Shown piece by piece: positions 220-29,268 of a DNA stretch of 36,015 nt (positions within the stretch are counted from its first letter, which is position 1; every line of letters starts with the position of its first letter). Location of the stretch: the IMG/VR virus record IMGVR_UViG_3300049140_000034, positions 1 through 36,015 of that record; one strand, given 5' to 3'. The notes beneath the pieces were generated by a model, which saw only the letters and a list, made by a program, of their open reading frames with translations, was not told the DNA's origin and ran no database searches. A program made the position numbers and the translations under genes. Origin of the DNA: a virus (Duplodnaviria; Caudoviricetes).

Positions 220-513
220 CTACGGTCCGGCGAACCAGTCGACGCTGGTGACGAGTTGGACGACGTCGGCGAGCGGCCGGTCGCCCTTCTCGTTGTTGCA
301 CTTGCGGAGGCAGACGGGGCAGCCGGCGTTGCCGTGGATGGGGGCGAGGTTGTCGGGGTCGAGCTTGGTGCCGCCCTTGCTGACCGGCACGACGTGGTCG
401 ACGGCGTCGGCTGCTCCGTGCCCGCAGACGATGCACACGTCGGACTCGGCGAGGATGCGGCCGCGTATTCGCCGGTACTCGTAGGAGACGAGCTCGTCGC
501 GGCTGGCGGCCAT
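220..513 (-). CDS. HNH endonuclease (packaging-associated)
   Basis: CxxC...DHVVP...G...NL..H...CxxC...CNN.KG HNH/zinc motif; GGAGG RBS; typical genome-end position. Confidence 0.9.
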   Translation of the reverse strand: MAASRDELVSYEYRRIRGRILAESDVCIVCGHGAADAVDHVVPVSKGGTKLDPDNLAPIHGNAGCPVCLRKCNNEKGDRPLADVVQLVTSVDWFAGP

Positions 514-729: not shown

Positions 730-759
730 ATCGTCACACAGGGTCTGACCTGCGGTCAA
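730..759 (-). promoter_or_regulatory. Candidate late promoter
   Basis: Minus strand TTGACC (759-754), 18 bp spacer, GACGAT (735-730), upstream of a terminator and the HNH gene. Confidence 0.4.
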
Positions 760-956
760 GCTGCTGCGTTCGCTCGTCGTTGTGCGGAGATGGCGGCGAC
801 GTCTTGGACGGTGTACCAGGGGTGTCGGTCGGTTCCTCCTGCGCGCTTGAGTCGGCCTCGGTAGACGAGGTTGCGGAGGGCTCCGGGTGTGATGCCGAGG
901 GCGCGTTGGGTGTCGCGGGCGGTGAGGTAGCCGACGGGTGCGAGCTGGTCGTCCAT
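756..956 (-). CDS. Small MerR/excisionase-like HTH DNA-binding protein
   Basis: LTARDTQRALGITPGALRNLVYRGRL...WY...DV pattern; GGAGG RBS. Confidence 0.8.
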   Translation of the reverse strand: MDDQLAPVGYLTARDTQRALGITPGALRNLVYRGRLKRAGGTDRHPWYTVQDVAAISAQRRANAAA

Positions 957-973
957 GCCCTCCAGTGTGCGGC

Positions 974-1142
974 AGGGAGGGAGGCGTAGGCGGGGATCCG
1001 GAGAGGCCGTTTGCGGGGTCCTTCAAGGACCCGGCAAGGCGCCTCCCTTGCCTCCCTCTGCTGGCATATGTGCAGGTCGCGCCGGGGGAGGCAGGGTGGG
1101 GAGGCGGTGAGGGAGAACTCCCTCAGATTTCGTCGCCTCCCT
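974..1142. repeat. clt-like cluster of 8-bp GCCTCCC(T/C) repeats
   Basis: AGGGAGGC 978-985, GCCTCCCT 1041-1048, 1050-1057 and 1135-1142, GGGGAGGC 1085-1092 and 1098-1105, plus degenerate copies; immediately downstream of the TraB-like gene. Confidence 0.75.
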
Positions 1143-3258
1143 CGTCGTCGGAGTCCTCCGCGAGGCGATCCAGGATGGCGTCGTGGACGCGGTTTCGGGC
1201 CACGGTCGACTTCCCGCCGCTCTTGTACGGCTCCGCCCCATACGGCTCCAGCGCCTTCTTCAGGTCGACGGGCCCCCATGCCAGGTATGCGTCCGGGCGG
1301 CGCTCGGCGAGCCGGTTCAGAACCTCCTGAGTGAGCATGCGCGGCGCGTCGCCGAGGACCGCGGCGACGTCGGTAAGCGCGTCGGCCGGCTCGAACGTCG
1401 GCTCCTCCACGGAGCCCGTGCCCTCGTACAGTCCCATCGCCCGCTCGACGACCGGTGTCACCTCGTCGACACCCTTCTCGGGGTCGCGGGCGACGTAGTG
1501 GGAGCGCACGACCTCGAACGGCTTGTTGCTGAACCCGACGGTCACGGCGGTGCCGACGTCCTCGCCGGGGATGAGCGTGGTGGCAGTGATGCCGGCCTTG
1601 TGCTTGCCGGAGCCGAGGAGTCCGTCGTTGGCGACGTGGTCGCCGACCGCGAACGCGACGCGGTGGCTGGTGTTGCGGGTGACGTCACGCGGGATGCTGT
1701 CCGCCGTGGGCGACACGGTCACGAAGACGAGGGTGATGCCGACCTTGCGGGCCTTCTTCAGCACCTTTACGGCCAGCTCGGCGGCTTCCTTGCCGTACTC
1801 CTTGTGCCCGAACAGCTCGTGGACCTCGTCGAAGACGACGACCTTGGGCCGCATCCGCGGGTCCTTCAGGGCCAGTTCGCGCGTCAGCTTGGTGGCGTCG
1901 CCGCCGAGTTCTTCCAGCAGCTTGCCGCGCTCGGTGACCTCGTCCCGCAGGTTCCGCAGCGCGACCAGGGCGGCCCGCAGGTCCTCGTCCTCGTCGCCCT
2001 TGACCAGCACCCGCATGCGGGGCTTGAGCGGGTCGTAGTCGACGTTGTACGCCATGACGTAGGCCTCGACGATGACGAGCGGGTCGAGGATCGCCCCGAG
2101 GAGCAGGGCGATGACGATGGACGTCTTACCCGAGCCCATGATCCCGCCGACCATCCAGTTGGCGGCCATGAGCTTGCCGATGATGGGCTCGCCGCGCTGG
2201 GAGACGGCGACGGGCACGCCCTTGAAGTAGTCGGTGGTGCCTTCGGTGAGCAGCGGCCACGGCGGCACGACGCCGGAGAGAGAGCCCTGGTCGGCGACCC
2301 ACAGGTCGAGGACGCCGGGCTGCTTCGGGGGTTCGGTCGGCCACGTCTCGACGGGCTTCCTGAGCAGGTTGTGGGCGAGGACGTTCTTCTTCGCGGCGAT
2401 CATCTCGACGGTGACGCCGAGGGGAAGCTGCAGCTGGGTGTGCCAGCCGTTGCCGGAGCGGGTGGTGGGCTGCACCCAGCGGGGCTGCCAGCCGTCCTTG
2501 ATGGCCTTGTTGAGCGGTGCGATGCCGAGGTTGCCGAGCGCACGGAGGATGGCGCCCTCGTCGGGGACGACGTCACGCTGCTCGGGGTCGCCGGGCAGGG
2601 CCCAGGCCGGGGCGGTCTGCCGGTGGCGGCCGACGGCCCACACCCCCGCGAGGGCGAGCCACGGCAGGCAGACCAGCAGCGGGTCCCAGACGACTCCGGC
2701 GATGAACGCGGCCCAGCCGACCAGCTCGATCACGGTGGTGATGGGGGTGAGCACGTCGGAGACGTCGTGGTTCGCCCAGGCCAGCATGATGCCGAGCATC
2801 AGCAGAATGCCCGCACCGCCAGCCGCGCCCATGGCGATGGCCTTGGGGGCGTTGATGGCCAGCTGCAGCAGCTCCATACGGCGGCGGTGGCGGGACTGCC
2901 GGAAGATGTAGGCGCGCTGCTCCCAGTCGCGGGCCACGTCTTCCTGACCAGCAGCTTCGGCGGCGCGCATCATCCGCTCGTGCCGGGCGGTCGTGCGGGA
3001 GTCCCAGGCCCGGCGGGTGAGGATGCGGGTGCCGCCGACGAGGTAGGAGCCGTGCCGGACGACGGCCCGGTACCCGGCGTTGGTGCGGACCTCGACGACG
3101 GCGCGCCGCAGGTGGTCGATGCGTACCCGGCGGCGGGCGCGGGGCTTGTCCTCGACGACGGCCGGCACCGGCGTGGTCGGCGGTTCGGGCGCGAACTTGA
3201 GGAGGTTCACCTTCGGGTCGGCGTGCCCGTTGACACGCTCGGCGGTGGTCTCGGTCAT
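1123..3258 (-). CDS. traB: FtsK/SpoIIIE-family conjugative DNA translocase (TraB-like)
   Basis: N-terminal TM helices, Walker A GIMGSGKT, Walker B VVVFDEVHE, C-terminal wHTH-like domain; Spd-like neighbours. Confidence 0.85.
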   Translation of the reverse strand: MTETTAERVNGHADPKVNLLKFAPEPPTTPVPAVVEDKPRARRRVRIDHLRRAVVEVRTNAGYRAVVRHGSYLVGGTRILTRRAWDSRTTARHERMMRAAEAAGQEDVARDWEQRAYIFRQSRHRRRMELLQLAINAPKAIAMGAAGGAGILLMLGIMLAWANHDVSDVLTPITTVIELVGWAAFIAGVVWDPLLVCLPWLALAGVWAVGRHRQTAPAWALPGDPEQRDVVPDEGAILRALGNLGIAPLNKAIKDGWQPRWVQPTTRSGNGWHTQLQLPLGVTVEMIAAKKNVLAHNLLRKPVETWPTEPPKQPGVLDLWVADQGSLSGVVPPWPLLTEGTTDYFKGVPVAVSQRGEPIIGKLMAANWMVGGIMGSGKTSIVIALLLGAILDPLVIVEAYVMAYNVDYDPLKPRMRVLVKGDEDEDLRAALVALRNLRDEVTERGKLLEELGGDATKLTRELALKDPRMRPKVVVFDEVHELFGHKEYGKEAAELAVKVLKKARKVGITLVFVTVSPTADSIPRDVTRNTSHRVAFAVGDHVANDGLLGSGKHKAGITATTLIPGEDVGTAVTVGFSNKPFEVVRSHYVARDPEKGVDEVTPVVERAMGLYEGTGSVEEPTFEPADALTDVAAVLGDAPRMLTQEVLNRLAERRPDAYLAWGPVDLKKALEPYGAEPYKSGGKSTVARNRVHDAILDRLAEDSDDEGGDEI

Positions 3259-3344
3259 GCTGGGGGCTTCCTGCCTCTTGCTGGGGTACGGAGGCCCGGG
3301 GACGGCAGCGGCTTGGCGGTTGCAGTGCCGTCCCCGGGGCGTTG

Positions 3345-3521
3345 CTACTTCTTCTTCTTGCGGCGGAGCGCCTGGTTCTCGATCCGCTCGATGCGCCTGG
3401 TCAGGTCGCTGATGTCGACGCTGTCCCCTGCGAGGCCGCGCTTCGCGGCGCGGGCGGTCAGGACGGCGATGCGGACCCGCTCGCCGCCGGTGAAGTCGGA
3501 AAACTTCAGGTCGTCAGCCAC
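3345..3521 (-). CDS. Small basic protein of transfer module (resembles DUF6257)
   Basis: GAGGA RBS, GTG 3521 to TAG 3345; MADDLKFSDFTGGERVRIAVLTARAAKRGLAG...RRKKKK, 58 aa; missing from ORF track. Confidence 0.7.
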   Translation of the reverse strand: MADDLKFSDFTGGERVRIAVLTARAAKRGLAGDSVDISDLTRRIERIENQALRRKKKK

Positions 3522-3675
3522 GGGTGTCCTCCTCGTCGGCGTTGGTGACGGTGACGTTGACGATGTGGCCGACTTGGAAGGGCAGGTCTTCGTAGGCGCG
3601 GGCGGTTGCGTCGTCGCTGACGGTGGTCTCGATGACGTCGCCGTCGGACTCGTAGATCGTGACCTTCTTGGCCAT
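3514..3675 (-). CDS. Small acidic hypothetical protein (53 aa)
   Basis: AAAGAGG RBS before ATG 3675; overlaps the start of the next gene. Confidence 0.7.
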   Translation of the reverse strand: MAKKVTIYESDGDVIETTVSDDATARAYEDLPFQVGHIVNVTVTNADEEDTRG

Positions 3676-3771
3676 GGCGGCCTCTTTTCGGGTTGGGGTG
3701 GAACGCTGGGCGGTTCCCCTCACCGCCCGGCCCAGGTCCGGGCGGATCGGGTAGCCGGCCAGCTGGGGTGG

Positions 3772-3957
3772 TTAGTCCTGCGCCCGGTGCTTCTCCATCG
3801 CCTTCAGTTCGTTGATGCGGTCGAGGGCGGCATCAGCATCTGCGGCGGCCTGGCGGGCGCGGGGGCCGTCTCCCATGAACGTTGCGTCGGCCTGAGCGCG
3901 GCTGGCTGCGAGCGCTGCGTCTTCCTGCTCGACGATCTTGCGGTTGTAGATGCCCAT
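3772..3957 (-). CDS. Small helical hypothetical protein (61 aa)
   Basis: GAGAGGAG RBS before ATG 3957 (MGIYNRKIVEQ...). Confidence 0.7.
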   Translation of the reverse strand: MGIYNRKIVEQEDAALAASRAQADATFMGDGPRARQAAADADAALDRINELKAMEKHRAQD

Positions 3958-4058
3958 GACGGGGCTCCTCTCGGTTGTGGGCTGGCCGGTTGGCCGGCCC
4001 CACCGCGCCCCCGCAACCGTGTCCGTATGAGCACGGTTGGCAGAGGACGGAGGGACCG

Positions 4059-4382
4059 TCAGCGGCGGCCCTTCTGCATGTCGCGCCACATGTCCCGAAG
4101 GACGAGCACGATGATCGCGGCGACGCCGCCGAGGATGGCCAGCGCGAGGGACGCGAACGCCAGCCCGATGGAGCCGACGCACACCGCGCACGCGATGCCG
4201 ATCCACTCGCCCGTGCTGCGGCGGGCCTTGCCGTGGTCGTGCTGGCACTGCTGCGGCGGCTGCGCCTGCTGCTGGGTGGCGAGCTTCGCCAACTCCATCG
4301 CGGCCATGGCCAGCTGTACGGCGGCCGTGTCGGTCTCGGCCGCGGTGACGGCGGCCTCAGCCTTGTCGAGGGCGTCGCTCAC
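4059..4382 (-). CDS. Small membrane protein, Spd-like
   Basis: Coiled N-terminus plus long hydrophobic C-terminal hairpin; coupled to upstream gene by GTGA overlap. Confidence 0.7.
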   Translation of the reverse strand: MSDALDKAEAAVTAAETDTAAVQLAMAAMELAKLATQQQAQPPQQCQHDHGKARRSTGEWIGIACAVCVGSIGLAFASLALAILGGVAAIIVLVLRDMWRDMQKGRR

Positions 4383-5332
4383 GACGTCTCACCGTCCTCC
4401 GCGAGGGCCTTCTCCCTGTCGTACAGGGCATCGACCACGTCCCATCCGCCGGTCAGCCCGCGGGCCCGCATGGCCTCCCGCATAGCCTCCCTGAACTTCC
4501 GCTTGGACGGCGGCGGGTCGGTGGCGTACAGCTCGGCGGCGAGCATGGCGACCGCCCGGAGGTTCGCGTTCTGCGGCCCTTCGAGGGAGGGCGTGCCGGA
4601 TTGGCGCGGTGTGACGGTCACGGGGGTTTCGGTGAGGGCGAAACCCCCCGTGCCGCCTGCGGTTTCGTCGTCCGGCACACCCCCCGACAGGAGGGCCTCA
4701 AGCTCGTGGTCGGAGACGAGGGCGGGCAGGTCGGTGTGCCAGTCCGGCACGGGGTGCTGGTCGATGATCTCGGCGTGGGCTTCGAGGGCCTGGTGGACGG
4801 TGGTGGTGGCTTCCGCTTCCGCTTTCCGGGACCGCTTCACGATGTCGGCGGCGGCCTTCGTCTCGTCGGCCCGTGCGGTGGCGAGGGCGCGGGACACGGC
4901 GATGCGGTCACGGGTCGCGGCACGCGTCCGGTCGATGGCCGACTGAGCCCGGGGGCTGATGCGGGTTGTGTCGCGGTCGATGGCCATCACCAGGGTGACC
5001 TTCGCGAGGACCGGGACCAGGCCGCCGACGGCCGCGGCGAGCAGGTCGGCGGCGAGGAGACCGTGGACGGCGAGGACCGCCACCGTGAGCGGGAGGAACA
5101 CCCAGCCCATGACCTTCGGGAGGCGGGCGCTGGATCCCTGACGGCGGTGCGCGGTTTCCTGGGCGAGGGCGTACAGCCATACGGCGTCGTAGAGGACGGC
5201 GACGGAGTAGGCGAACGCGGGATGGGCCTGGGCGGTGAGGATGTCGCCGATAGCGGCGACGGCCCACACGATGGCGACGGCGGTGAGCACGGCGGGCAGG
5301 ACCCAGGGGCCGGCCTTCTTCAGACGGTTCAT
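4379..5332 (-). CDS. SpdB-like multi-TM spread protein (317 aa)
   Basis: Start MNRLKKAG via ATGA overlap; ~4 N-terminal TM helices, coiled coil, basic C-terminal HTH-like region. Confidence 0.7.
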   Translation of the reverse strand: MNRLKKAGPWVLPAVLTAVAIVWAVAAIGDILTAQAHPAFAYSVAVLYDAVWLYALAQETAHRRQGSSARLPKVMGWVFLPLTVAVLAVHGLLAADLLAAAVGGLVPVLAKVTLVMAIDRDTTRISPRAQSAIDRTRAATRDRIAVSRALATARADETKAAADIVKRSRKAEAEATTTVHQALEAHAEIIDQHPVPDWHTDLPALVSDHELEALLSGGVPDDETAGGTGGFALTETPVTVTPRQSGTPSLEGPQNANLRAVAMLAAELYATDPPPSKRKFREAMREAMRARGLTGGWDVVDALYDREKALAEDGETS

Positions 5333-5691
5333 GCTTCGCCGACCTCCAGCGCGGACAGCCGCGTCGCCAGGCGCCGCAGATAGAGCGCGTGCCGGTGCAT
5401 CGCGTCCGCCAGCTCGTCCAGGCCCGCGGCGTCGAGGGTGCCGGTGTAGCCGCACTGCTCGACGTACACGCCGACCTGCGGGGCGCCGGAGAACGGGGAC
5501 TGCACGTACATCACCTTCCACAAGGTGGTGTCGCGGAAGTCGAGGTCGTGTTCGGGGCCGTAGTGAGTCAGGTCGGGCAGGAACTGGGCGTGCCCGTCGT
5601 GGTGTCCGGTGCACCAGTCGGGTTCTTCGACGGTGCGGTGCTGGGTGACGAGGACGTTGACGACGGTGGTGTTGGGCTCGGCGCTACTCAC
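5329..5691 (-). CDS. Hypothetical protein (DUF6907-like)
   Basis: PDWC..HH...H.G motif plus C-terminal amphipathic helix; coupled overlaps on both sides. Confidence 0.7.
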   Translation of the reverse strand: MSSAEPNTTVVNVLVTQHRTVEEPDWCTGHHDGHAQFLPDLTHYGPEHDLDFRDTTLWKVMYVQSPFSGAPQVGVYVEQCGYTGTLDAAGLDELADAMHRHALYLRRLATRLSALEVGEA

Positions 5692-6059
5692 TGGCCTTCA
5701 CCGGCCTCGGCGTGCTCGGCGGCGAGGAAGGCGGCGACGGTGGGGAACGCGCGGTCGACGGAGCGGCGGGCGGCCCTGTCGGCGGCCTCGGTCTCCTCGG
5801 CGCGGAGCCTGCCGCGGAGGAAGTCGGCGTTCCAGCCGATGCTGGCCGGGTCCTCCTCCAGGGCGCCCTTGACGGTGGCGCGGACCCAGTCGGCCCGGGT
5901 CTCCATCCGGCGGGCGTGCTCGGGGCCGTCGTAGGGGAGGGTGACGGCTTCGAGGACCGCTTCCAGCAGCTGGCGGAGGTCGCGGGCGTCGCCCGGGTTC
6001 TGCGTGGGGGTGGACGGGGAACTTGCGGGCGCGTCGGGGCGCACGGAAAGATCGGTCAT
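5688..6059 (-). CDS. Hypothetical protein (123 aa)
   Basis: AGGAG RBS before ATG 6059; first gene after a structured leader. Confidence 0.75.
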   Translation of the reverse strand: MTDLSVRPDAPASSPSTPTQNPGDARDLRQLLEAVLEAVTLPYDGPEHARRMETRADWVRATVKGALEEDPASIGWNADFLRGRLRAEETEAADRAARRSVDRAFPTVAAFLAAEHAEAGEGQ

Positions 6060-6158
6060 GCCGACTCCTGGTGTGAGATCCAAGTCGGTAGAGGGTCGGG
6101 CGGTGCGATCGCCTCCCGGGTGCTCCAACACCTGGGAGAGCTGCTGCCCGGCCCTCGT

Positions 6159-6398
6159 CTATTCGGTTGTGGCGTCCGGGTTGGGCGCCTTCTTGCGCTC
6201 GTCTCGCTTGAGCGCTTGGTCGATGGCCTGCCAGCTGCGCCCGAGGGCGCGTGCGACCTCGGCCTTGGAGCCGAGTTCCTGCACGCCTTCGCGCAGGGCC
6301 TCAGCTCGTCGTGCGGCGGACTCGGAGACGAGGCCTCGCAGCTGCTCCAACAGCTGTTCTTCCTCGTGGACCCGCTCCCGCCAGGGCTTCGTGTCCAT
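6159..6398 (-). CDS. Small HTH regulator heading the transfer module (79 aa)
   Basis: GSKAEVARALGRSWQAIDQAL helix-turn-helix; palindrome just upstream. Confidence 0.75.
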   Translation of the reverse strand: MDTKPWRERVHEEEQLLEQLRGLVSESAARRAEALREGVQELGSKAEVARALGRSWQAIDQALKRDERKKAPNPDATTE

Positions 6399-6410
6399 CG
6401 AGAACACGGT

Positions 6411-6430
6411 ATCCAACACTAGGGTTGGAT
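6411..6430. promoter_or_regulatory. Palindromic operator candidate
   Basis: ATCCAAC-actagg-GTTGGAT, 12 bp upstream of the HTH gene start. Confidence 0.65.
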
Positions 6431-6439
6431 GCAAGGTGG

Positions 6440-7063
6440 TCACGCTGCCTCGCTCGGCTGAAGCTTCCTCAACTCCAGCCAGGTCTCCGGCGGGTACGTT
6501 GTACCGCACCACCGGCACTCCACCTTCGCCGTGCCCGCCGGCACCCGCAGCACCGCACCGCACACGACACCGTCCTCGTACACAGCCGGGCAGTTCCCCA
6601 GCCGCATCGACCGCTCCGGCGGATTCACGATGGAGATGCCGTCCCGCTCCAGGCCGCGGATCTCCTCCGCGAACGCGCCCGCCATCGGCCAGCTCGCCGC
6701 GATCCAGTCGAGGTTCATGGACAGGGCGCGCGACGCGACGGCGATCCGCCGCTCCACGGTGCCCTCGATGGCGGGCTCACCCCACCCCCGGTCGGCCTGC
6801 ATCGCCGAGCGCCAGTCCTCCAGGACGCCGACCATGCCGCCGGGGCCGCGGAGGTTGAACGCGGGCTCGGCGATCGGCAGGGGTGCCTCGGCGGGCCGGG
6901 ACCGGCCGAACTCCGGGCGGCGCCCGGACGGCTGGAGGAACGCGGCGAGGGCTTCGTACAGGTGGGGCATTCGGTCGAGGCGTTCGGCGAGGGCGAGCGT
7001 GTCGCCGGGGCACAGGTAGCCGTGCTCCAGGTCGCGCTCACACAGGCCGCAGCTGGCGGTCAT
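6440..7063 (-). CDS. Zinc-ribbon protein, putative late-gene regulator
   Basis: N-terminal CGLC...LC and C-terminal CP...CG...CRWCG motifs. Confidence 0.75.
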   Translation of the reverse strand: MTASCGLCERDLEHGYLCPGDTLALAERLDRMPHLYEALAAFLQPSGRRPEFGRSRPAEAPLPIAEPAFNLRGPGGMVGVLEDWRSAMQADRGWGEPAIEGTVERRIAVASRALSMNLDWIAASWPMAGAFAEEIRGLERDGISIVNPPERSMRLGNCPAVYEDGVVCGAVLRVPAGTAKVECRWCGTTYPPETWLELRKLQPSEAA

Positions 7064-8413: not shown

Positions 8414-11086
8414 TCAGCTCGCTTCGGCCCAGAAGTCGTCGGGCTCTTCGAGCGGCACGTCCCACAGCCCCGCGTCTTCGGGCGCTGGAGGCGGCGTGGG
8501 CTGGGGCGTTGCTTGGCCCGAAGTGTGGGTAGCGCGCGTACCGGAACCCTCTGACGAGCGCTTCCCAAGATCGTTAAGGTCTCTTTCTTGGGGGGTTGGG
8601 GTTGGGTAACCAACACTTCGTGCCAAGGGAGAGCCCTCAGAATCGCTCGCTTGTTCGGTAGCGGTCTGCGCGGCCAGCACACGCGTCACCAGAGCCCGCT
8701 CCTCGCCCAACTGCCACGGGTTCGACGACGGGAACCCGGACTCCTCGGTGTCCTCGTCCTTCTCGTGGCGCGGACATGTCGTCAGCTCCAGCACCTCCAT
8801 GTCCTCCAGCGCCCGCCGGGCGACATGCCGGTTGAGGCCCGTCCGACGCCGGACTTCTGAGACCGTCATGGCCTCGCCACCCGCGAGCTGCCGGAGACAG
8901 GCGAGACGGGCCTGCGGCACCGTGTCGAGGGCGCACTTACCAGCGAGCGCCAGGGCCCGGCCGCGGGGCACACCGAGGGCAAGGAGTGACTTGGCGAGCG
9001 CGACGATCTGCCCTGTGACACGGGCAGGCTCCTCGATGACGGGGATTCCGTCGATCTCCCGGCGGCCGTAGGCGTTACGGGGAACGGCGGCGCGGCCGAG
9101 GCAGGTGAGCATGGCCGCGTCCTCCAGCTGGTCGTACATCTCGTCGTCCAGCTCGACGTCACCGACGACTCGCCGGGCGACACGCACGAGCTCGGACGCG
9201 CGACGTCGGGCCTCGGCCTGCTTCTCGGCGAGCCCTTCGATCTTCCGGCGCTTCCGGACGGTCGCCTTCTTGTGGGCGTTGTCGGTCTCGGGCAGGCGGC
9301 AGTACAACCACCGGGGACCGAGCGCGTCGGTGTGCGAGGAGAAGTTGTCGATGGCTGGGGTGACTGCAGCGAGCAGAGTGAGGCGTCCTGTCCAGGTCAG
9401 TGGACGTGGGGAGTTGCCGACCTCGCGGACGACGTGGCCGTCGTAGGCGCGGCGCAGGAGGGCGAACAGAGTGTCGCGGCCGCCGCGGTCGGACGTGGCG
9501 AGGACGGTGGAGAAGTCGGAGATGGTGACGAACGCGCGGCTGGGAATGCGGGTCAGGATGCCTGCGGGCTTGGGGTTCTTGCCCGGCATCCACGACAGGA
9601 GTGCAGGCCCGGTGATGTCGTCGACGTGCTCGTCGGCGGAGTCGTCGAGGGCCTTGACGGCCTCGCTCTTGCCGCCGGAGGGCGGGCCGACGAGCATGCC
9701 CCAGAGCGGTTCGCCGTCGAGGTCGGAGGACACGGCGACTGCGAGGGAGAAGATGATGTGTCCGTAGTCGTCGAGGTGGATGTAGGTCTGCATCTGTTTG
9801 AGGAAGTCGGCAAGCAGCGCGGCCGGCGACCCGGCGGGCGGTGCATCCGCCTCGTCCTCAGCGGCCTGCTCGGTCTCGTCCTGGGCCTGCTGCTCGTCTT
9901 CGGCGCGGGCCGTGGCCGCGCGGACGTCGTCGAGGACGACGGAGGGTAGGGCCTGAGCGGCAGCGCTCGCGTCGTCGCGGCCGTGGGCGGCGCGGATGAT
10001 GTCGCGTGAGGCTTCGGACTCGTCGCCTCCGTGGTGCAGTGCGGCGAACAACTGGCCGGAGGAGAGGACGTGGCCGATCGCGGCGGCTGTGATGCCGGGG
10101 AAGTTGTCGGTACGGATCGTGACGGCGGCACCGTCCTTGTGGACCGCGATGCCGTCCTTGGAGCAGGTGTCGTCCCAGCCGGGGCGATTCCACCGCTGGC
10201 ACCCCGAGCCGCAGTACGAGCAGTTGCCCGGGAGCTGCTCGGCGTAGGTCGCGCCGACATGCATGAGGATCTCGCCGCAGCACGCGTGATCACCGAGGAC
10301 CTCCATCGGCCCCCGGCCGCCGCGCGCCGAGCCGGGACGTGACGAATTGCTGCGCGGCGCCGATGGCTTCGGGGCCGAGCGCTTCTTCGGCTTCGGCTTC
10401 AGGTCGGCAGCCATCTGCCGGATGTCGTCTGCGCGGAAGCGAACACCGGTGTCCTCGATGACCCGGCACAGAGTCGGCGTCCGTCCCGGCTTGCGGTTGA
10501 CGGTGCCGGGCAGCCGCAGCACCCGCGCCAGATCCCTGACGCCGGTGCCGTAGCCGAAGCCCATCGTCTTCGCGCCGGCCAGGAGAATGTTTTGCCAGTC
10601 CCCGCCAAGCTCGGCGGCCGCCTCGAAGTCGATGTCCTCACCGATGACGAGCGGCTTCTCGAACTCCCACCAGACGTAGAGGCCTGCGCCGGAGTGCTCG
10701 ACGCGCGTGGGCTCGGGGAGCTTCGCGAAGCGCGGGATGTCGCGCGCCTCGTCCGCGTTGCCGGGCAGATCGGTCGCCTTGTGGAGGTCGTTGCCGAAGT
10801 CGATGTCGGACCACATGCCGACGAGGGCGCGAGAGTCGCGCGCGCTGCCTCGGGTCCCGGCGGGGAACCGCGACGTGACGGTGGTGACGCGGCAGTAGAT
10901 GCCCTCCGCCCCCGTGCGGTCCTCCTCCATGGCCCAGGCGACGGCGCGGTCCAGGTCGTCGGTCTGGATGCCAGTCCAGTTGTTCTTGGAGCAGAGCGAG
11001 ACGAGGCCCGGCGCCTCGAAGCGGGGGGCGAGCCAGGCCCGGGTGATCTCCGGGTCTGCGGCCAGCGGCTCGGTGTTGGTGTTCAC
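8414..11086 (-). CDS. Primase-helicase replication protein (RepB-type AEP primase, Zn region, AAA+ ATPase, wHTH)
   Basis: WSDID, HSGAGLYVWW and DLARVLRLPGT.N.K primase motifs; CxxC cluster; Walker A GPPSGGKS; C-terminal HTH; start placed at GTG 11086 (track start 11197). Confidence 0.85.
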   Translation of the reverse strand: MNTNTEPLAADPEITRAWLAPRFEAPGLVSLCSKNNWTGIQTDDLDRAVAWAMEEDRTGAEGIYCRVTTVTSRFPAGTRGSARDSRALVGMWSDIDFGNDLHKATDLPGNADEARDIPRFAKLPEPTRVEHSGAGLYVWWEFEKPLVIGEDIDFEAAAELGGDWQNILLAGAKTMGFGYGTGVRDLARVLRLPGTVNRKPGRTPTLCRVIEDTGVRFRADDIRQMAADLKPKPKKRSAPKPSAPRSNSSRPGSARGGRGPMEVLGDHACCGEILMHVGATYAEQLPGNCSYCGSGCQRWNRPGWDDTCSKDGIAVHKDGAAVTIRTDNFPGITAAAIGHVLSSGQLFAALHHGGDESEASRDIIRAAHGRDDASAAAQALPSVVLDDVRAATARAEDEQQAQDETEQAAEDEADAPPAGSPAALLADFLKQMQTYIHLDDYGHIIFSLAVAVSSDLDGEPLWGMLVGPPSGGKSEAVKALDDSADEHVDDITGPALLSWMPGKNPKPAGILTRIPSRAFVTISDFSTVLATSDRGGRDTLFALLRRAYDGHVVREVGNSPRPLTWTGRLTLLAAVTPAIDNFSSHTDALGPRWLYCRLPETDNAHKKATVRKRRKIEGLAEKQAEARRRASELVRVARRVVGDVELDDEMYDQLEDAAMLTCLGRAAVPRNAYGRREIDGIPVIEEPARVTGQIVALAKSLLALGVPRGRALALAGKCALDTVPQARLACLRQLAGGEAMTVSEVRRRTGLNRHVARRALEDMEVLELTTCPRHEKDEDTEESGFPSSNPWQLGEERALVTRVLAAQTATEQASDSEGSPLARSVGYPTPTPQERDLNDLGKRSSEGSGTRATHTSGQATPQPTPPPAPEDAGLWDVPLEEPDDFWAEAS

Positions 11087-13776: not shown

Positions 13777-15258
13777 CTATCGCTTCCAGTCGAAGGTGAC
13801 GGCGTCGTAGTCGAAGTACCCACCGTCCGGCATCCGGCCCTGGCGTGGCGTCTTCAGCGTCACCTCGACCAGGCTCCGCAGCACGTTGCGCTGCCGGTCC
13901 AGCTCCAGCGCCCGCCACGCCTTCCGCACATCCGGCGCACCCACTAGGGCGACGAGCGGGTCGACGGTCGCCGCACGCGCCAGCTGCAGCGTGACGCCGG
14001 CGAGCTGCGCGCGGGCCGTGTCCATGCCCTCCGTGAACGGCTCCAGCTCCAGCTGACCCGCACCGAACAGGCCGCCCAGGTTCTTCATCCGCCGGCGGAT
14101 CAGTTCCTCCTCGGCCTGCAGTGCGGCCACGTCTACGTCGTCCGGGCCGGGCAGCAGCATCTCGTGCGCGTCCGGCTCCGACAGCCGGGCGACGATCGTG
14201 TCCTCGACGAACCTGTCGACGATCTCGGCGCGCCGGCCGCCGCCGTGCCCGGTCGGGCACCGGTAGCTCGGGTACTGGCGGCCACCCGACTGGGTGACGG
14301 TCATGCCCTCGCCGCACTCCGCGCGCCCGCACCGGTACAGCAGCGAGCCGACCCACTTCGGCTGGGCCCCCCGGTTCACGTTCCGCGCCGGGTCCATCAG
14401 GATCGCCACGACGGCCCTGTACTTCGTCTCCTCGACGATGGGCTCCCACTTCCCCCGGCCGACCTCCTCGCCCTTGTAGACGGCGATTCCGGCGTTCCTC
14501 GGGCGCATCAGCATGTCCCGCAACTCGGTGTGCGTGACCGGGTTCCCGCGGGTGGTGGTGATGCCCTTGTCGGCGCACCACTTCACCAGGGAGCGGATTG
14601 ATCCGCCGGACAGGATCGTGTCCGTCCAGTGGCGCAGTACCTCCGCCTCCTCGGGCACGACCTGGTTCATGTCGAGGACGTTCGCCTCGATCTCCTCGCC
14701 GGTCTTCCGGTCGGCCTTGGTGCGCGTCTCGCCGGTGGGCACACCCCACCCGAACGGGCGGATTCCGCCGCTCCACTCGCCCGCGAGGGCTCTCTGCTGG
14801 CGGGCGCGGGCGACGCGGTGTCCCTTGTGCTCGGACTCCTGGCGGGCGACGGCGCCGAGGATGCGGGCGGTCATCCGCCCGGACGGTGTGGCGAGGTCGA
14901 TCGTTCCGGCCTGCACGGTGTGTGTGGCGATGCCGCGCCGGTCGGAGAGTTCGATGTACTCCTCCAGCTCGACGATCGAGCGGGTGAGCCGGTCGGTGTG
15001 CCAGACGATGACGACGGTGGCGGTGCCCTGGTCGAGGTCGGCGAGCATTCGCCGGTAGTCCTTGCGGAGCTTGCCGGAGAAGGCGCTCACGTCGTTGTCG
15101 ACGTAGGTCTCGACGACGTTCCAGCCGTTACGTTCCGCGAGGGCCTCGCAGTCCTGGCGCTGCCGGTCGACGCCGAGGCCGGCGCCGGTGCGGTCCTGGC
15201 TGATGCGGCAGTAGATGACGGCGCGGGCGGGTGCGTCGGCCGGTGACGTGGGCTTCAT
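13777..15258 (-). CDS. int: Large serine recombinase (integrase)
   Basis: YCRIS catalytic Ser, DRLTR, recombinase domain, zinc-ribbon Cys and coiled coil. Confidence 0.96.
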   Translation of the reverse strand: MKPTSPADAPARAVIYCRISQDRTGAGLGVDRQRQDCEALAERNGWNVVETYVDNDVSAFSGKLRKDYRRMLADLDQGTATVVIVWHTDRLTRSIVELEEYIELSDRRGIATHTVQAGTIDLATPSGRMTARILGAVARQESEHKGHRVARARQQRALAGEWSGGIRPFGWGVPTGETRTKADRKTGEEIEANVLDMNQVVPEEAEVLRHWTDTILSGGSIRSLVKWCADKGITTTRGNPVTHTELRDMLMRPRNAGIAVYKGEEVGRGKWEPIVEETKYRAVVAILMDPARNVNRGAQPKWVGSLLYRCGRAECGEGMTVTQSGGRQYPSYRCPTGHGGGRRAEIVDRFVEDTIVARLSEPDAHEMLLPGPDDVDVAALQAEEELIRRRMKNLGGLFGAGQLELEPFTEGMDTARAQLAGVTLQLARAATVDPLVALVGAPDVRKAWRALELDRQRNVLRSLVEVTLKTPRQGRMPDGGYFDYDAVTFDWKR

Positions 15259-15277: not shown

Positions 15278-15331
15278 AGTGGTGTCCTTGTCTGGGGTTC
15301 GGGAACCCCAATCTGTGCCTAGAACGCCACT
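15278..15331. other. Candidate attP (54 bp)
   Basis: Imperfect inverted repeat (17 of 26 positions by my count; outer AGTGGTGT/ACGCCACT) centred on AA at 15304-15305, 19 bp upstream of the integrase start. Confidence 0.7.
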
Positions 15332-19010: not shown

Positions 19011-19238
19011 TCAGGCGTCGCTGCGCGGGGTGTGCGGTGCCGCCCATCCGCCGATCGCCGCGGCGGCCGCGGGCAGCATCGCGAGGACGAACGGCTCCAG
19101 CGCGTCGGGCATCGAGCCGATGAGCGAGGGGTCGTCGGTGACGGCGCCGACGACCGCCAGCCCGGCGACGCCCACCAGGTAGGTGAGCGCGGTCGCGAGC
19201 TTGACCTTCTTCTCGATCGGGGCGGAGGGAGATGCCAT
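19011..19238 (-). CDS. Holin (75 aa, two TM)
   Basis: GAGGA RBS; APIEKKV...GWAAPHTPR actinophage holin pattern directly after the endolysin. Confidence 0.85.
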
Positions 19239-19246
19239 GGTGTTCC

Positions 19247-19957
19247 TCACTTCTTCTCCAGCGCAGTGACGCGCTTCTCCAGAGCGGTCAGCCGCTCCTC
19301 GGTCGTCGGCTTCGGTGCCGGCGTCGTCGTGCCCGGCGACCAGCCCGCCGCGTGCTTCAGCCGTTCGGCGACGCGCTTGCGGATGTCCGGCATGGACACC
19401 CCGGGGCCGCGCGGGTCGACCTTGCCCGGCTGCCACTCGCGGTGGCCGATGACGGACGTGTCGCCGTCCTTGCCCCAGCCCTGCACCCGCACCAGAGCGG
19501 CCGACGCCCGCACCATCGCCTCGACCTGGACGGCGGGCCACGGGTCCTGGCCGTCGCCGAGGTTCTCGCACTCGAAGCCGTAGAAGTGCCGGTTGCCGTC
19601 GGTGTTCGCCTCGTTCGGCGCGGGCAGCGTCTTCTCGCCGATGACCGCCTTGAGGACGTCGTCGTCGCCGGAGCCGGCGTGGTTCGTGCGGCCGTAGCCG
19701 ACGAGGTGCACGGTGCCGTCCTTGGTGATGACGCCGTGGCACAGCGGGCCGGGCAGCCCCGCGTAGCCGTTGCGGCAGATCTGCACCGTGTTGGCGGTGC
19801 CCTTGGTGACGGTGTGGTGGATCATCACGCCGTGCACGGGCCCCCACGGGCCCATGTGGTCGCGGTTGTGGTCCTTCCAGTCGCCGACCTCGACGACCTT
19901 CGCGCCCTCCGCCTTCAGAGCGGCGAGGAACTTGGACGCGGACAGGGGTGTGGCCAT
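19247..19957 (-). CDS. Endolysin, N-acetylmuramoyl-L-alanine amidase (Amidase_2)
   Basis: IHHT, NHAG, YGFE and GHREW...K.DP zinc-amidase motifs. Confidence 0.93.
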   Translation of the reverse strand: MATPLSASKFLAALKAEGAKVVEVGDWKDHNRDHMGPWGPVHGVMIHHTVTKGTANTVQICRNGYAGLPGPLCHGVITKDGTVHLVGYGRTNHAGSGDDDVLKAVIGEKTLPAPNEANTDGNRHFYGFECENLGDGQDPWPAVQVEAMVRASAALVRVQGWGKDGDTSVIGHREWQPGKVDPRGPGVSMPDIRKRVAERLKHAAGWSPGTTTPAPKPTTEERLTALEKRVTALEKK

Positions 19958-20020: not shown

Positions 20021-20551
20021 TCAGCCGATGCGGCGGTAGACCATGCGCGTGTTGTTGCCGCCGCGCAGGATCGTCTGGTTGGCGTGCGAGACGGCCTGAG
20101 CGAACTGCAGGGTGATGGCGCTGGTCGTGCCATCGGTGACGAACGTGCCCACGTCGAAGGCTGAGTGGAAGTTCGCCGGCGGGGACGTCGCGTCGGAGCC
20201 GCCGGCGAGACGGCCGGTCGTGTTCGCCGGGCGCCGCATCAGGATTGACTGCGGCGTGTTGGAGGTGCCGCTGGCGCCGGGGCTGGAGATGGCCTGCGTG
20301 AAGCTGCAGAGCGTCGCCCCACTGGCCAGCCAGCTCCACCGGAACCCGCTGTTGATGGTGGCCGAGTAGCTGATCCAGCACCAGTACAGATAGGTCGCGT
20401 TCGGCTCGGGCGTGAACGTGATCTCCGAGTTGATGACGGTGGTGGAACTGGTGACGGTCTGGTCGTTCTCCTGCTGGACCAGCCGCTCGTTCCGGGCGTT
20501 CATGTCGTCCGCGATGAGGATCTGGCCCGCGAACCACTGGGGAATGGACAC
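20021..20551 (-). CDS. Minor tail/fibre protein
   Basis: W.AGQ.L.A..MN N-terminus typical of actinophage tail proteins; beta-rich; last gene of the tail cluster. Confidence 0.75.
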   Translation of the reverse strand: MSIPQWFAGQILIADDMNARNERLVQQENDQTVTSSTTVINSEITFTPEPNATYLYWCWISYSATINSGFRWSWLASGATLCSFTQAISSPGASGTSNTPQSILMRRPANTTGRLAGGSDATSPPANFHSAFDVGTFVTDGTTSAITLQFAQAVSHANQTILRGGNNTRMVYRRIG

Positions 20552-20561
20552 TCAGGGCCTC

Positions 20562-23279: not shown

Positions 23280-23283
23280 GTCG

Positions 23284-24669
23284 TCACATCCCCTGGTTGT
23301 ACTTGGATCGCTGGGTCCGGTAGGCCAGGCCGGCGGTGTCCCGCGAGTCGTAGACGATGCCGCCGTCGACGTCGGCCGCCGACTGCAGCAGGTCGAGGAA
23401 CGCGCCCGACTTCTGCGGGCCCATGCGCGGGGTCTGGTCCAAGTTGCCGTTCACCAGCAGCGGCACGCCCTGCTCGGCACACAGCCGCTCGATACGCCGC
23501 CCCGCGCGTTCCCGGTTGTAGCCCTGCGCGGCGTGCCACGTGTCGGCTGCGGAGGACGGCGAGGGCCCCCAGTAGGTGATGTGCCCCAGCGCCATGGGCT
23601 CGGCCATCGAAGCGAAGGCGCCCCACCGGTAGCGGAAGCGGGCGACCGGCCGGTGCGGAACGGCATACGTGCCGCTGGCGACGCTGGAACCGTCGATGAA
23701 GAGTTGCCAGTCCGTCGAGACGCCGTTCGCCGTGGTCGTCAGCCGGATCATGTGCAGGGAGTCGTCGAAAACACCCGGGCCGGCGACGGTCGTGAGGACG
23801 GCGAGGGACGACATGGTCTCGCCTGACGACAGCACCCGCAGTTCGACGTCGTTGGCGACCCGGTCGGCGACCACGATCCACGCCAGGATCGGGTCGGGGT
23901 CCGTGCCCTGCCCGGTGTCGAAGACCGCGAGATCGTCCTCGATGCCGCCCGCTCCGGCCCGGTAGTGGTCGACCGACCACGACGTCAGCGTCATCGGTGA
24001 GACCTTGACGGTGAGGGTGCCCTCGGTGCTGGCGGGCAGCTGCACCGTGGGGTCCAGCCACGGGGCGAGGGCGCCTTTCCCCCAGTCGGGCTGTCCCTGG
24101 TAGAAGGATCCGGCCGTGCCGATGGCGCGCAGCGGCTGGGCGCCGGCGGCGACCTCGGACCCCTCGATGGCCCGCTCGCCGTCGGTCAGCGGCCAGTACC
24201 GCAGCGGCAGAGCGGAGCCGACGTGACGGCGTAGCGCGTCCTTGAGCGCCTTCGTTCCCTGCATCAGGCGGCGCTTCATCCCGTGGGCTGTGACCGTACT
24301 GAAGATGTCGTTGCCGCTCACGTCCCACTTGGTGGGCCAGCTGGTGATGTAGCCCTCGAACCGGCCGACCACCGCCCCGCTCGGCGTGGTCAGGTCGACG
24401 GCCACCAGTGTGCTCAGCCCCAGCAACCCGAACAGATCCGAGCGCGGGTTGCGGCGCGAGTACCGGCCGAGGATGCCGGGGCTGGCCTTGCTGTAGCCGT
24501 TGTTCAGGGTGAGCGGGCAGCGGGTCGGGTCGGCCGTCGACCCCCAGTCCTGCCGCCCCCACGTGACCGCGATCTTGTCGCGGTTGAGGACGTCGGCGGT
24601 GATGTCCACCCAGGCCCCGCCCAGGAACAGGGAGATGACCACGACGAGCGGAGTCTGAGGGAACACCAC
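23284..24669 (-). CDS. Minor tail (hub/distal tail) protein
   Basis: Follows tape measure; WVDIT.DV, YWPL.DG (LamG-like) and R..RLC.E.G patterns. Confidence 0.85.
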   Translation of the reverse strand: MVFPQTPLVVVISLFLGGAWVDITADVLNRDKIAVTWGRQDWGSTADPTRCPLTLNNGYSKASPGILGRYSRRNPRSDLFGLLGLSTLVAVDLTTPSGAVVGRFEGYITSWPTKWDVSGNDIFSTVTAHGMKRRLMQGTKALKDALRRHVGSALPLRYWPLTDGERAIEGSEVAAGAQPLRAIGTAGSFYQGQPDWGKGALAPWLDPTVQLPASTEGTLTVKVSPMTLTSWSVDHYRAGAGGIEDDLAVFDTGQGTDPDPILAWIVVADRVANDVELRVLSSGETMSSLAVLTTVAGPGVFDDSLHMIRLTTTANGVSTDWQLFIDGSSVASGTYAVPHRPVARFRYRWGAFASMAEPMALGHITYWGPSPSSAADTWHAAQGYNRERAGRRIERLCAEQGVPLLVNGNLDQTPRMGPQKSGAFLDLLQSAADVDGGIVYDSRDTAGLAYRTQRSKYNQGM

Positions 24670-24681
24670 GCGAGGGCCTCC

Positions 24682-26970: not shown

Positions 26971-26982
26971 CGGCCCCCCTCT

Positions 26983-27156
26983 CTACCGCGACTTGCGGGC
27001 GTTCTTCTCCATCTGCGCCGAGTACTCCTCCAGCCAGGCGAGGAGGTGGTCCTCCTCCTCGACCCTCAGCAGGTCCCAGTCGCGGGGGGTCATGTTCAGC
27101 ACGTGGGCGGCGGTGCCGAGCTGCTTCAGGCGGCGAAGGGCAGCCGGGCTTTTCCC
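26983..27156 (-). CDS. Tail assembly chaperone, -1 frameshift extension (G-T type)
   Basis: Open -1 frame GKSPAALRRLKQ...KSR entered at the slippery site. Confidence 0.8.
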   Translation of the reverse strand, partial: GKSPAALRRLKQLGTAAHVLNMTPRDWDLLRVEEEDHLLAWLEEYSAQMEKNARKSR

Positions 27157-27521
27157 TCGCCGTCGTCCTCCGGCGCCTGCTCGCGCTGCTTGAGCATGGC
27201 CTCGATCGTGTTCTCGTTGCCGCCCTTCTCCTGCAGCTTGGCCACGGCCAGGTCCAGCTCGCCCTTGGTCATCTCGACCGTGAGTTCGTCCCACGCGAAG
27301 TCGACGTCGTCGAGGCGGAGCGTCGGGTGCTGCCGCTTCAGCAGGACGTGCAGCAGCGCCCGACGGCACCGCGAGTCTCCCTTCAGCACGCCCATGGCGA
27401 AGTCGCTGAAGCTCCGACCGGTGACCTTCTCCAGCGCCTCGCGCTCGACCGACATCAGCTTGTTCGGGTTGTAGTCGAAGACCTGCGGCTCGCCGTCTTC
27501 GGGGGTGTACGTGACCTTCAA
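27126..27521 (-). CDS. Tail assembly chaperone
   Basis: Position before tape measure; ends ...GEGKARLPFAA across the slippery site. Confidence 0.88.
   Translation of the reverse strand: MKVTYTPEDGEPQVFDYNPNKLMSVEREALEKVTGRSFSDFAMGVLKGDSRCRRALLHVLLKRQHPTLRLDDVDFAWDELTVEMTKGELDLAVAKLQEKGGNENTIEAMLKQREQAPEDDGEGKARLPFAA
27150..27156 (-). other. Programmed -1 frameshift site G GGA AAA
   Basis: In-frame X XXY YYZ heptamer near the chaperone 3' end. Confidence 0.85.
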
Positions 27522-27543
27522 GGTGACCGCCTCTGCGATGAGT

Positions 27544-28466: not shown

Positions 28467-28485
28467 GACGGGCCCTCCTTTCAGG

Positions 28486-28512
28486 GCATGACGAAGGGCC
28501 CGCATGCGGGCC
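28486..28512 (-). terminator. Hairpin between the tail-tube paralogues
   Basis: Palindrome GGCCCGCATGCGGGCC (28497-28512) followed on the minus strand by CTTCGTCATGC. Confidence 0.5.
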
Positions 28513-28529
28513 AGAGGTCGAGCAGGGGG

Positions 28530-29267: not shown

Positions 29268-29268
29268 G

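What the first reader, a model, noticed from the sequence alone, without database searches (positions are those of the whole stretch)
957..6430. Intact-looking tailed phage carrying a TraB/clt/Spd conjugation module: a candidate conjugative phage
Seen: between the early/replication genes and the HNH gene lies a co-oriented cassette of an HTH regulator with a palindrome, small ORFs, two membrane proteins, an FtsK-family ATPase (GIMGSGKT, DEVHE) and a downstream 8-bp repeat cluster. Known: Streptomyces plasmids and AICEs transfer double-stranded DNA using only TraB plus clt repeats, with Spd proteins aiding spread within mycelium; no relaxase or T4SS is needed. Inference: after serine-integrase excision and primase-helicase replication, the circle could be either packaged or pumped into neighbouring hyphae, bypassing receptor-based resistance. 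The plasmid-phage pZL12 is a precedent from memory, but an integrating 36-kb siphophage spending ~15% of its genome on this is unusual.
Basis: partly seen in the sequence, partly recalled or inferred. Interest (0 to 1): 0.9.

Follow-up and report, generated by a model that had tools for sequence, protein, structure and literature searches.

The report
Temperate phage carrying conjugation DNA pump
A complete-looking temperate Streptomyces phage carries, as many of its relatives do, the DNA pump, docking repeats and membrane proteins used by Streptomyces conjugative elements, so it likely can also pass its genome from hypha to hypha without making virus particles.

Summary
Confirmed. The window is a whole 36-kb Streptomyces-type siphophage record (full virion and lysis genes, serine integrase, intact attP). 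Bases 957-6440 form an autoregulated operon: promoter with operator, HTH repressor, SpdB-like membrane protein, small membrane protein, and a 711-aa TraB (two membrane helices, FtsK-fold motor, winged-helix-like tail) followed by a GCCTCCC repeat array. It is neither an assembly chimera nor a nested AICE. The same genome slot holds full-length TraB in 19 of 28 close viral relatives but only 7 of 36 broader Streptomyces prophage loci. At least five divergent TraB types occupy the slot, each with its own repeat, and the repeat changes with the DNA-binding tail. Phage and non-phage alleles are intermixed in the tree. Best reading: the excised circle can be packaged or pumped by TraB into neighbouring hyphae and across cross-walls; transfer itself is untested. 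The concept is known from plasmid-phages (pFP4, pZL12), and plasmid pFP3 shares these virion genes with another TraB. An integrating prophage family with swappable TraB/clt pairs was not found in 10 literature searches. This scan has noted such modules before on other DNA.

The parts
6399..6434 (-). Promoter-like site (TTGCAT-17 nt-TACCGT-7 nt-ATG, predicted leaderless) with operator palindrome ATCCAAC-N6-GTTGGAT (6411-6430) in the spacer
   Evidence: Same layout in 12 of 12 loci whose HTH is at least 56% identical, 15 of 41 HTH-homolog loci overall; palindrome differs where the HTH differs (L040; L126, L111, L063). The E. coli-type promoter scan found nothing.
6159..6398 (-). 79-aa HTH protein, likely autorepressor of the transfer operon
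   Evidence: phrog_7061 HTH E=5e-4; operator in its own promoter
5688..6059 (-). 123-aa protein, no family
   Evidence: homologs in phage and non-phage traB loci
5329..5691 (-). DUF6907 protein (120 aa)
   Evidence: Pfam PF21848 E=6e-24; cluster present in 25 of 41 traB loci
4379..5332 (-). SpdB-like membrane protein (317 aa)
   Evidence: 3 hydrophobic segments; N-terminal 150 aa hit pIJ101 SpdB (E=8e-5) and an AICE 'spdB' (E=1.6e-6) in a first-round phmmer of about 4,200 local proteins
4059..4382 (-). 107-aa single-pass membrane protein, Spd-like
   Evidence: homolog in excised AICE NZ_CP108827 E=1.7e-10; cluster in 29 of 41 traB loci
3772..3957 (-). 61-aa ORF
   Evidence: one homolog locus
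3514..3675 (-). 53-aa ORF
   Evidence: homologs in two related phage contigs
3345..3521 (-). DUF6257 protein (58 aa), directly upstream of traB as in AICEs
   Evidence: PF19771 E=5e-23; same DUF6257-traB pair in AICE NZ_CP108827
1123..3258 (-). TraB-type FtsK-like DNA translocase, 711 aa: 2 membrane helices (141-159, 173-191), motor with GIMGSGKT/DEVHE, C-terminal winged-helix-like domain (about 627-707)
   Evidence: FtsK motor E=9e-16; winged-helix folds, Z 5-5.9
978..1142 (.). clt-like locus: GGGAGGC (1135-1141, in traB end), GGGAGTTCTCCC (1111-1122), GCCTCCC x2 (1099-1105, 1086-1092), central GACCTGC (1072-1078), GGGAGGC x2 (1050-1056, 1041-1047), GCCTCCC (979-985)
756..956 (-). 66-aa HTH_17/MerR-like protein, phage-side right border of the slot
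220..513 (-). HNH endonuclease of the packaging module
   Evidence: PF01844, phrog_338
6440..7063 (-). 207-aa phage protein (phrog_1467, 'g207'), phage-side left border of the slot
   Evidence: used as unbiased marker
8414..11086 (-). Prim-pol/helicase replication protein
   Evidence: phrog_2478 E=4e-10; 95% to a prophage of S. ossamyceticus
13777..15258 (-). Large serine integrase
   Evidence: Resolvase + Recombinase + Zn ribbon
15293..15310 (+). Intact attP core TGGGGTTC-GG-GAACCCCA
   Evidence: homology to three integrated relatives ends at 15305; the other half-site found 36.0 kb away in G003
19011..19957 (-). Endolysin (Amidase_2, 19247-19957) and likely holin (19011-19238)
20021..35986 (-). 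Complete siphovirus head and tail module: terS, terL, portal, protease, major capsid, connectors, tail tube, tape measure, minor tail proteins
   Evidence: Pfam and PHROG hits; lengths match homologs

Best explanation
This temperate phage carries an intact AICE-type transfer operon (repressor, Spd-like membrane proteins, TraB and its cognate repeat array) in a fixed slot of its genome, and likely uses it as a second, virion-free route of spread. Shown from sequence: the parts, their conservation, the intact attP, and the TraB-repeat covariation. Inferred, by analogy to pSVH1/pIJ101/AICEs: (1) the HTH protein keeps the operon low in the lysogen and is de-repressed on excision or entry into a naive cell; (2) the serine integrase excises a circle, which prim-pol replicates; (3) membrane-anchored TraB hexamers load at the GCCTCCC array through their winged-helix tails and pump double-stranded DNA into a contacting hypha; (4) TraB with the Spd-like proteins moves copies across cross-walls of the recipient mycelium; (5) the circle re-integrates at attB in the host cpaF/tadA gene or enters the lytic cycle.
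For: TraB anatomy complete. Nearest relatives are in non-phage elements (91%). 35 of 40 sampled sister-clade genes lie beside GntR, prim-pol or tyrosine integrase genes, the AICE layout. Slot filled by full-length TraB in 19 of 28 distinct viral contigs picked by phage genes, with five Walker-A types, each followed by its own repeat. Among 95 related TraBs, 91 have CCTCCC arrays and the 4 with a changed recognition helix and wing have TCACTG arrays in the same layout. Phage-borne alleles are not one clade (AU p=3e-9). Five closest phage traB pairs dN/dS 0.13-0.24. Same virion chassis carries a sixth, pJV1-like TraB in plasmid pFP3. Streptomyces plasmid-phages that conjugate and make particles are cited in PMC4170104.
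Against: No transfer, expression or binding data. No experimentally studied TraB is closer than about 27% over half the protein (pSVH1, pSG5), and the protein is below Pfam's FtsK cut-off and has no NCBIfam plasmid_TraB hit. The module is dispensable: only 7 of 36 g207-marked loci in 401 Streptomyces genomes have full-length slot TraB, 1 has a truncated one, 25 have none; TraB-less relatives often keep the membrane genes. Median pairwise dN/dS of phage traB (0.46) is above non-phage traB (0.39) and terL (0.24), though dS is saturated. Sequence cannot separate transfer between mycelia from spread within one mycelium.
Confidence: 0.6

Rival explanations
1. The pump works only inside the infected mycelium: TraB and Spd proteins move phage DNA across vegetative cross-walls (or into sporulating hyphae), enlarging the burst or spreading lysogeny, while new colonies are reached only by virions.
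For: In pSVH1, Spd proteins with TraB direct intramycelial spreading (abstract of PMC4447253). A phage already has a route between colonies. Spd-like genes are kept.
Against: The same alleles and the same clt layout are exchanged with AICE-like elements, and TraB with clt alone suffices for plasmid transfer between mycelia (PMC3583192), so nothing evident would stop transfer to a neighbour.
Confidence: 0.2
2. The module acts mainly on other DNA or other elements: it mobilises host chromosome from the integrated prophage, competes with or excludes incoming AICEs that use the same repeats, or inhibits neighbours (pock-like effect), and is lysogenic cargo rather than a transmission route for the phage.
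For: TraB mobilises chromosomal DNA (PMC11571958). The GCCTCCC specificity is shared with very common AICEs. TraB-less slots retain membrane genes; one prophage keeps repeats with a truncated traB (L218).
Against: The cognate repeat array is always placed in cis on the phage and is swapped together with the tail, which marks the phage genome as the substrate.
Confidence: 0.12
3. It is a neutral or decaying passenger: an AICE fragment picked up by recombination, or a nested AICE.
For: Absent from most of the wider family; 91% identity to a non-phage element suggests recent exchange; one truncated copy.
Against: No integrase, rep or att inside the module. Slot genes found in the viral census are all full length, 687-717 aa. 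Purifying selection in close pairs. A phage-slot promoter and repressor replace the AICE GntR regulator. Five independent TraB types in one slot of a roughly 36-kb genome.
Confidence: 0.07
4. Assembly chimera of a phage and an AICE from a soil metagenome.
For: The record probably comes from a soil metagenome; no single listed unitig spans the whole module.
Against: Even depth, unitigs bridge both borders; same gene order in isolate genomes, for example G001, G002, G003, G005.
Confidence: 0.01

Closest known systems
Streptomyces TraB/clt/Spd transfer modules of plasmids (pSVH1, pSG5, pIJ101, pJV1, pWTY27) and AICEs (pSAM2/SLP1 type)
   Same: Membrane-anchored FtsK-like motor with C-terminal DNA-binding tail, short-repeat clt directly after or overlapping the gene, SpdB-like membrane protein, no relaxase or T4SS. 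Same DUF6257-traB pair and repeat as AICE NZ_CP108827.
   Different: Sits in a tailed phage genome; regulated by a small HTH with an operator in its own promoter rather than a divergent GntR (TraR/KorA); uses the phage's serine integrase and prim-pol; TraB only about 27% identical to studied proteins.
Streptomyces plasmid-phage pFP4 (Chen et al. 2012, Plasmid 68:170; not read, seen as cited in PMC4170104 and PMC6950372)
   Same: An element described as able to conjugate as episomal DNA and to make infective particles.
   Different: Described as an episomal plasmid-phage; this element is integrative with no par or plasmid rep genes found. pFP4's sequence was not found in the collections, so gene-level relation is untested.
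Plasmid pFP3 of Streptomyces sp. F2 (NC_023067, 34,083 bp)
   Same: Near-identical virion module (capsid 92%, tail tube 86-88%, portal 83%, tape measure 77%, terL 73%) plus an FtsK/TraB gene, DUF2637 membrane gene and downstream repeats.
   Different: Its TraB is pJV1-like (30%) with no BLAST match to the window's; GntR-regulated, other position and orientation; ParA, DnaB and tyrosine integrase. No paper on it was seen.
Plasmid-phage pZL12 (Zhong et al. 2010; not held)
   Same: Phage and conjugative life cycles in one Streptomyces replicon (title and citation).
   Different: [quoted passage not shown]
'Conjugative prophage' Phi1207.3 of Streptococcus pyogenes (PMC4260502, passages)
   Same: Integrated prophage that moves by contact.
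   Different: Mechanism unknown there, no dedicated translocase module described in the passages seen; unrelated host and genes.

Membership tests
Streptomyces TraB translocases | FtsK/SpoIIIE-type motor with Walker A and B | tested here: met
   GIMGSGKT, VVVFDE; model matches FtsK motor, Foldseek E=9e-16. Pfam PF01580 hit is below cut-off, 19 vs 24 bits.
Streptomyces TraB translocases | N-terminal membrane anchor | tested here: met
   hydrophobic segments 141-159 and 173-191, helical in the model
Streptomyces TraB translocases | C-terminal winged-helix domain | tested here: met
   wHTH topology at pLDDT about 90; top structural neighbours mostly winged helices but each weak (Z 5-5.9, rmsd 2.6-8.8; Foldseek E>0.07)
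Streptomyces TraB translocases | Groups with plasmid/AICE TraB, not chromosomal FtsK or EccC | tested here: met
   in a 100-support clade of 47 rows (23 phage, 24 non-phage), far from 3 FtsK rows (FastTree); no FtsK_gamma or 4TM hit; no hit to NCBIfam NF041214 plasmid_TraB; deep branches unreliable (long-branch warning)
Streptomyces TraB translocases | Hexameric pore that binds clt and translocates dsDNA | not testable with these tools
   needs biochemistry
clt locus | Cluster of short direct/inverted repeats next to traB | tested here: met
   6 of 10 copies in 165 bp; 48 of 50 same-type loci have at least 3 copies; same method recovers GACCCGGA x4 after pSVH1 traB (that this is the known TRS is recalled)
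clt locus | Repeat sequence is specified by the TraB winged helix | tested here: met
   covariation: 91 CCTCCC vs 4 TCACTG arrays track the tail sequence, not the motor clade; three further TraB types have three further repeats. Correlative, not binding data.
clt locus | Required in cis for transfer | not testable with these tools
   needs mating assays
Spd proteins | SpdB/SpdB2-like multi-pass membrane protein in the traB operon | tested here: met
   first-round phmmer hits to pIJ101 SpdB (8e-5) and AICE spdB (1.6e-6); none to pSVH1 SpdB2
AICE | Integrase + replication protein + Tra on one element | tested here: met
   whole phage has serine Int, prim-pol, TraB; criteria from PMC3218068
AICE | The module itself is a self-contained element with own int/rep/att and no virion genes | tested here: not met
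   no int, rep or flanking att in 957-6440; full virion module present
Temperate siphophage | Complete packaging, head, tail, lysis, integration and immunity genes | tested here: met
   attP intact
Temperate siphophage | Produces infectious virions | not testable with these tools
   excised form and ends that stop short of the conserved pre-terS segment are consistent with packaged DNA but do not show it
Plasmid-phage (pZL12/pFP4 type) | Prophage maintained as an autonomous plasmid (rep/par) | tested here: not met
   no ParA/ParB or plasmid Rep among 47 scanned ORFs; relatives with the same integrase are integrated

The most novel reading that the evidence does not exclude
A widespread, uncultured family of integrating Streptomyces phages is truly dual-mode: a lysogen can hand the whole prophage to a neighbouring, even receptor-less or virion-resistant, mycelium through a TraB pore without lysing, and the phages swap TraB/clt specificity pairs with AICEs to escape competition or exclusion. 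These would be phage-ICE hybrids with a defined conjugation machine, and could also mobilise host chromosome.
Probability: 0.45. Interest if true: 0.85.

Novelty: new variant of a known kind. Interest (0 to 1): 0.62.

Why it matters
If true, temperate phages of Streptomyces have a lysis-free transmission route suited to mycelial growth, so host range and resistance measured by plaque assay would miss part of their spread, and AICE counts based on int+rep+tra would include prophages. The five natural TraB/repeat pairs in one slot give a ready set for decoding how the TraB tail reads its repeat. Sequenced lysogens exist, so the open question of a conjugative prophage with a known mechanism becomes directly testable. 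The general idea is not new (pFP4, pZL12), which caps the score.

Tried and rejected
No tblastn match of this TraB or of the sister type in 50,697 GenBank phage records; a third slot type hit only phage Gilgamesh at 27%, so no cultured member of this family with the module was found. NCBIfam named none of the small module genes. The E. coli-type promoter/terminator scan found no site on the module's strand. A terminator-hairpin reading of the repeats was set aside because the unit changes with the TraB tail. A 12-bp direct match between the module's flanks lies inside two HTH coding regions and is not taken as att. No terminal repeat in the record. The physical ends could not be tested with reads, so 'virion DNA cut at cos' stays an inference. 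Runs with small word shares were not used for habitat. The head-tail adaptor rows were dropped because my query was in the wrong frame (corrected). Iterated profile E-values are circular; only first-round values are used. Single-linkage clustering of tails did not separate the TCACTG group; the residue-level comparison did. In the viral census 43 of 76 loci did not span the slot and 3 distant terL loci were left out. The group table ('1 change') compares phage only with FtsK and is not informative; the phage/non-phage count is 15. pSAM2, SLP1, SCP2 and pFP4 sequences were not obtained (for SCP2; no pFP4 record appeared). No complex prediction was run.


Full report
What the window is. The window is the whole record G000, a 36,015-base virus contig, about 70% G+C. 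Read on the minus strand it runs terS, terL, portal, protease, capsid, connectors, tail, endolysin and likely holin, a GntR gene, serine integrase, repressor/cro pair, prim-pol, SSB, g207, the module, HTH17, HNH. Gene lengths match homologs. All close relatives are in Streptomyces. attP is intact: TGGGGTTC-GG-GAACCCCA at 15293-15310. Homology to three integrated relatives stops at 15305, where they continue into the Walker A codons of a host T2SSE-family ATPase followed by T2SSF and Flp-like genes (a tad/cpaF locus); in G003 the other half-site lies 36.0 kb away. One unitig spans attP at the same depth as the rest, so the sampled DNA is mainly the excised form. Both contig ends stop short of a segment conserved upstream of terS in five relatives; this fits linear DNA cut at cos, but is inference only.

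Observation check. The module is as described. TraB is 711 aa with two hydrophobic segments, a motor whose model matches FtsK (E=9e-16), and a C-terminal domain of winged-helix topology (each match weak, Z 5-5.9). The 317-aa membrane protein hits pIJ101 SpdB and an AICE spdB in a first-round search. Six of ten GCCTCCCY copies fall in 165 bp after traB. Run X1, probably the source and so not independent, covers module and backbone at depth 19-28 and bridges both borders.

It is a TraB of the AICE kind. There is no match among 50,697 phage records and 30 plasmid records match at 25-48%, the best an excised AICE with the same DUF6257-traB pair. 191 of 401 Streptomyces genomes hold a relative, with 16 copies at 64% or more (only two candidates scored per genome). 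Of 40 sampled sister-clade genes (33-39%), 35 lie beside GntR, prim-pol or tyrosine integrase genes, 1 lies in a prophage and 4 show no marker. In a 120-row FastTree the window's protein sits in a 100-support clade of 23 phage and 24 non-phage rows, nearest a non-phage element at 91%, far from chromosomal FtsK; at least 15 phage/non-phage changes are needed. On 31 of these rows, holding the 13 phage alleles together is rejected (AU p=3e-9). Deep branches carry long-branch warnings, and no studied TraB is close (about 27% over half the length).

It is a family trait, but accessory. Of 41 loci found with TraB, 21 are in phage context (18 with a terminase in the locus), with at least three head types. 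Sampling from the phage side, with g207 and terL in IMG/VR, 28 distinct contigs span the slot and 19 hold a full-length TraB. These belong to five Walker-A types; two phages 94-96% identical to the window in g207 carry a TraB only 32-33% identical. In the broader genome sample, 36 g207 loci occur in 35 of 401 genomes; 7 have a full-length slot TraB, 1 a truncated one, 3 a distant TraB elsewhere without a terminase in the stretch, and 25 none (three of the seven genomes were already known to me through TraB). TraB-less slots often keep DUF6907, DUF2637 and another membrane cassette. The five closest phage traB pairs have dN/dS 0.13-0.24; the median is 0.46 against 0.39 for non-phage traB and 0.24 for terL, with saturated dS.

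The repeats behave like clt. The array layout is conserved in phage and non-phage loci while spacers vary; 48 of 50 same-type loci have three or more copies. Other slot types have other repeats: CGAAACC (10 of 10), CTCTAC-like (2 of 2), CTAGC (1 of 1). Among 95 TraBs of the two related motor clades, 91 have CCTCCC arrays and 4 have TCACTG arrays in the same layout; those 4 alone have a changed recognition helix and wing, and two CCTCCC-type proteins nest among them in the tree. These 4 are related, so this may be one or two events. The counting method recovers GACCCGGA after pSVH1 traB, which I recall as its known recognition sequence. TraB binding of 8-bp clt repeats via the winged helix is described in PMC12857230 and PMC3583192 (passages).

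Regulation. The palindrome lies in the 17-nt spacer of TTGCAT-TACCGT, 7 nt before the HTH start. This layout recurs in 12 of 12 loci with a close HTH and 15 of 41 overall, and the palindrome differs where the HTH differs. I infer an autorepressed, leaderless operon, independent of the lytic cascade, in place of the GntR regulator of AICEs. A generic promoter scan does not see it.

Mechanism. Most likely (0.6) the excised, replicated circle has two exits: packaging, or TraB-driven transfer into a contacting hypha followed by Spd-aided spread and re-integration. I put about 0.8 on the module being a working pump for the phage's own DNA; the main uncertainty is whether it reaches other mycelia or only other compartments (0.2). 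Cargo acting on other DNA (0.12), passenger (0.07) and chimera (0.01) fit less well. No step of transfer is shown.

Known or new. Streptomyces plasmid-phages that conjugate and make particles are known (pFP4, as cited in PMC4170104; pZL12; originals not read). Plasmid pFP3 shares the window's virion genes (capsid 92%) and carries a pJV1-like TraB module; Pseudonocardia pPaSha2 also joins virion genes and a related FtsK gene. Phi1207.3 is a contact-transferred prophage of unknown mechanism. Ten searches of the open-access library showed no paper on integrating Streptomyces prophages with TraB/clt/Spd; subscription papers and supplements were not seen. Papers seen as passages: PMC9513070, PMC3218068, PMC4487206, PMC3583192, PMC5431353, PMC13587820, PMC4260502, PMC6950372, PMC4170104, PMC11571958, PMC12282955, PMC12857230; as abstract: PMC4447253. 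The scan's own notes report the same kind of module on other DNA; I read them after forming my view and do not count them as support. The tally includes one unpublished genome (G135); no other claim rests on it.

Verdict. Real, intact-looking and under selection; a new variant of a known kind (integrating phage with an exchangeable AICE-type transfer module). Interest 0.62.

Noticed in passing
window 15293-15310; L057, L190/L189, L116: The serine integrase of this group inserts into the Walker A codons of the host tad/cpaF pilus ATPase gene, splitting it; lysogeny would likely switch off Tad pilus assembly, possibly removing a phage receptor (no paper found).
   Followed up: partly
window 17117-17151 and 17192-17992: A GntR-UTRA gene (about 30% to TraR/KorSA-type regulators of AICEs and plasmids) is divergent from small ORFs, with a perfect 12-bp inverted repeat between them; a second AICE-like segment next to attP.
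   Followed up: partly
window 16594-16729 and 16136-16222: Short stretches 87% identical to DNA just downstream of traB in non-phage element L001, and 74-83% to several other non-phage traB loci.
   Followed up: no
L001, L002, L006, L013, L014, L020, L022-L025, L027, L029: Many non-phage elements with this TraB carry a large tape-measure-like gene and sometimes a few tail-like genes but no capsid in the stretch read: possibly phage satellites or a further phage-AICE intermediate.
   Followed up: partly
L039 (15-kb contig): Satellite-like element with terS, terL, prim-pol, tyrosine integrase and TraB module but no capsid gene seen.
   Followed up: no
L104, L114, L117, L144, L168: TraB-less slots hold a conserved alternative cassette (DUF2637-like protein, 47-aa and 170-aa membrane proteins, often a 115-aa protein) of unknown role.
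   Followed up: no
L218 (G362): Prophage with only the C-terminal 280 aa of a TraB but an intact repeat array; could be mobilised in trans or be decaying.
   Followed up: partly
L203 (pFP3, NC_023067): A record deposited as a plasmid has the window's whole virion module plus a different TraB module, ParA and DnaB.
   Followed up: yes
window 20562-23279: 905-aa tail-region protein with a PhoD-like phosphodiesterase domain.
   Followed up: no
window 1-30 and 35987-36015: Contig ends lack the segment conserved upstream of terS in relatives, a candidate cos region.
   Followed up: partly
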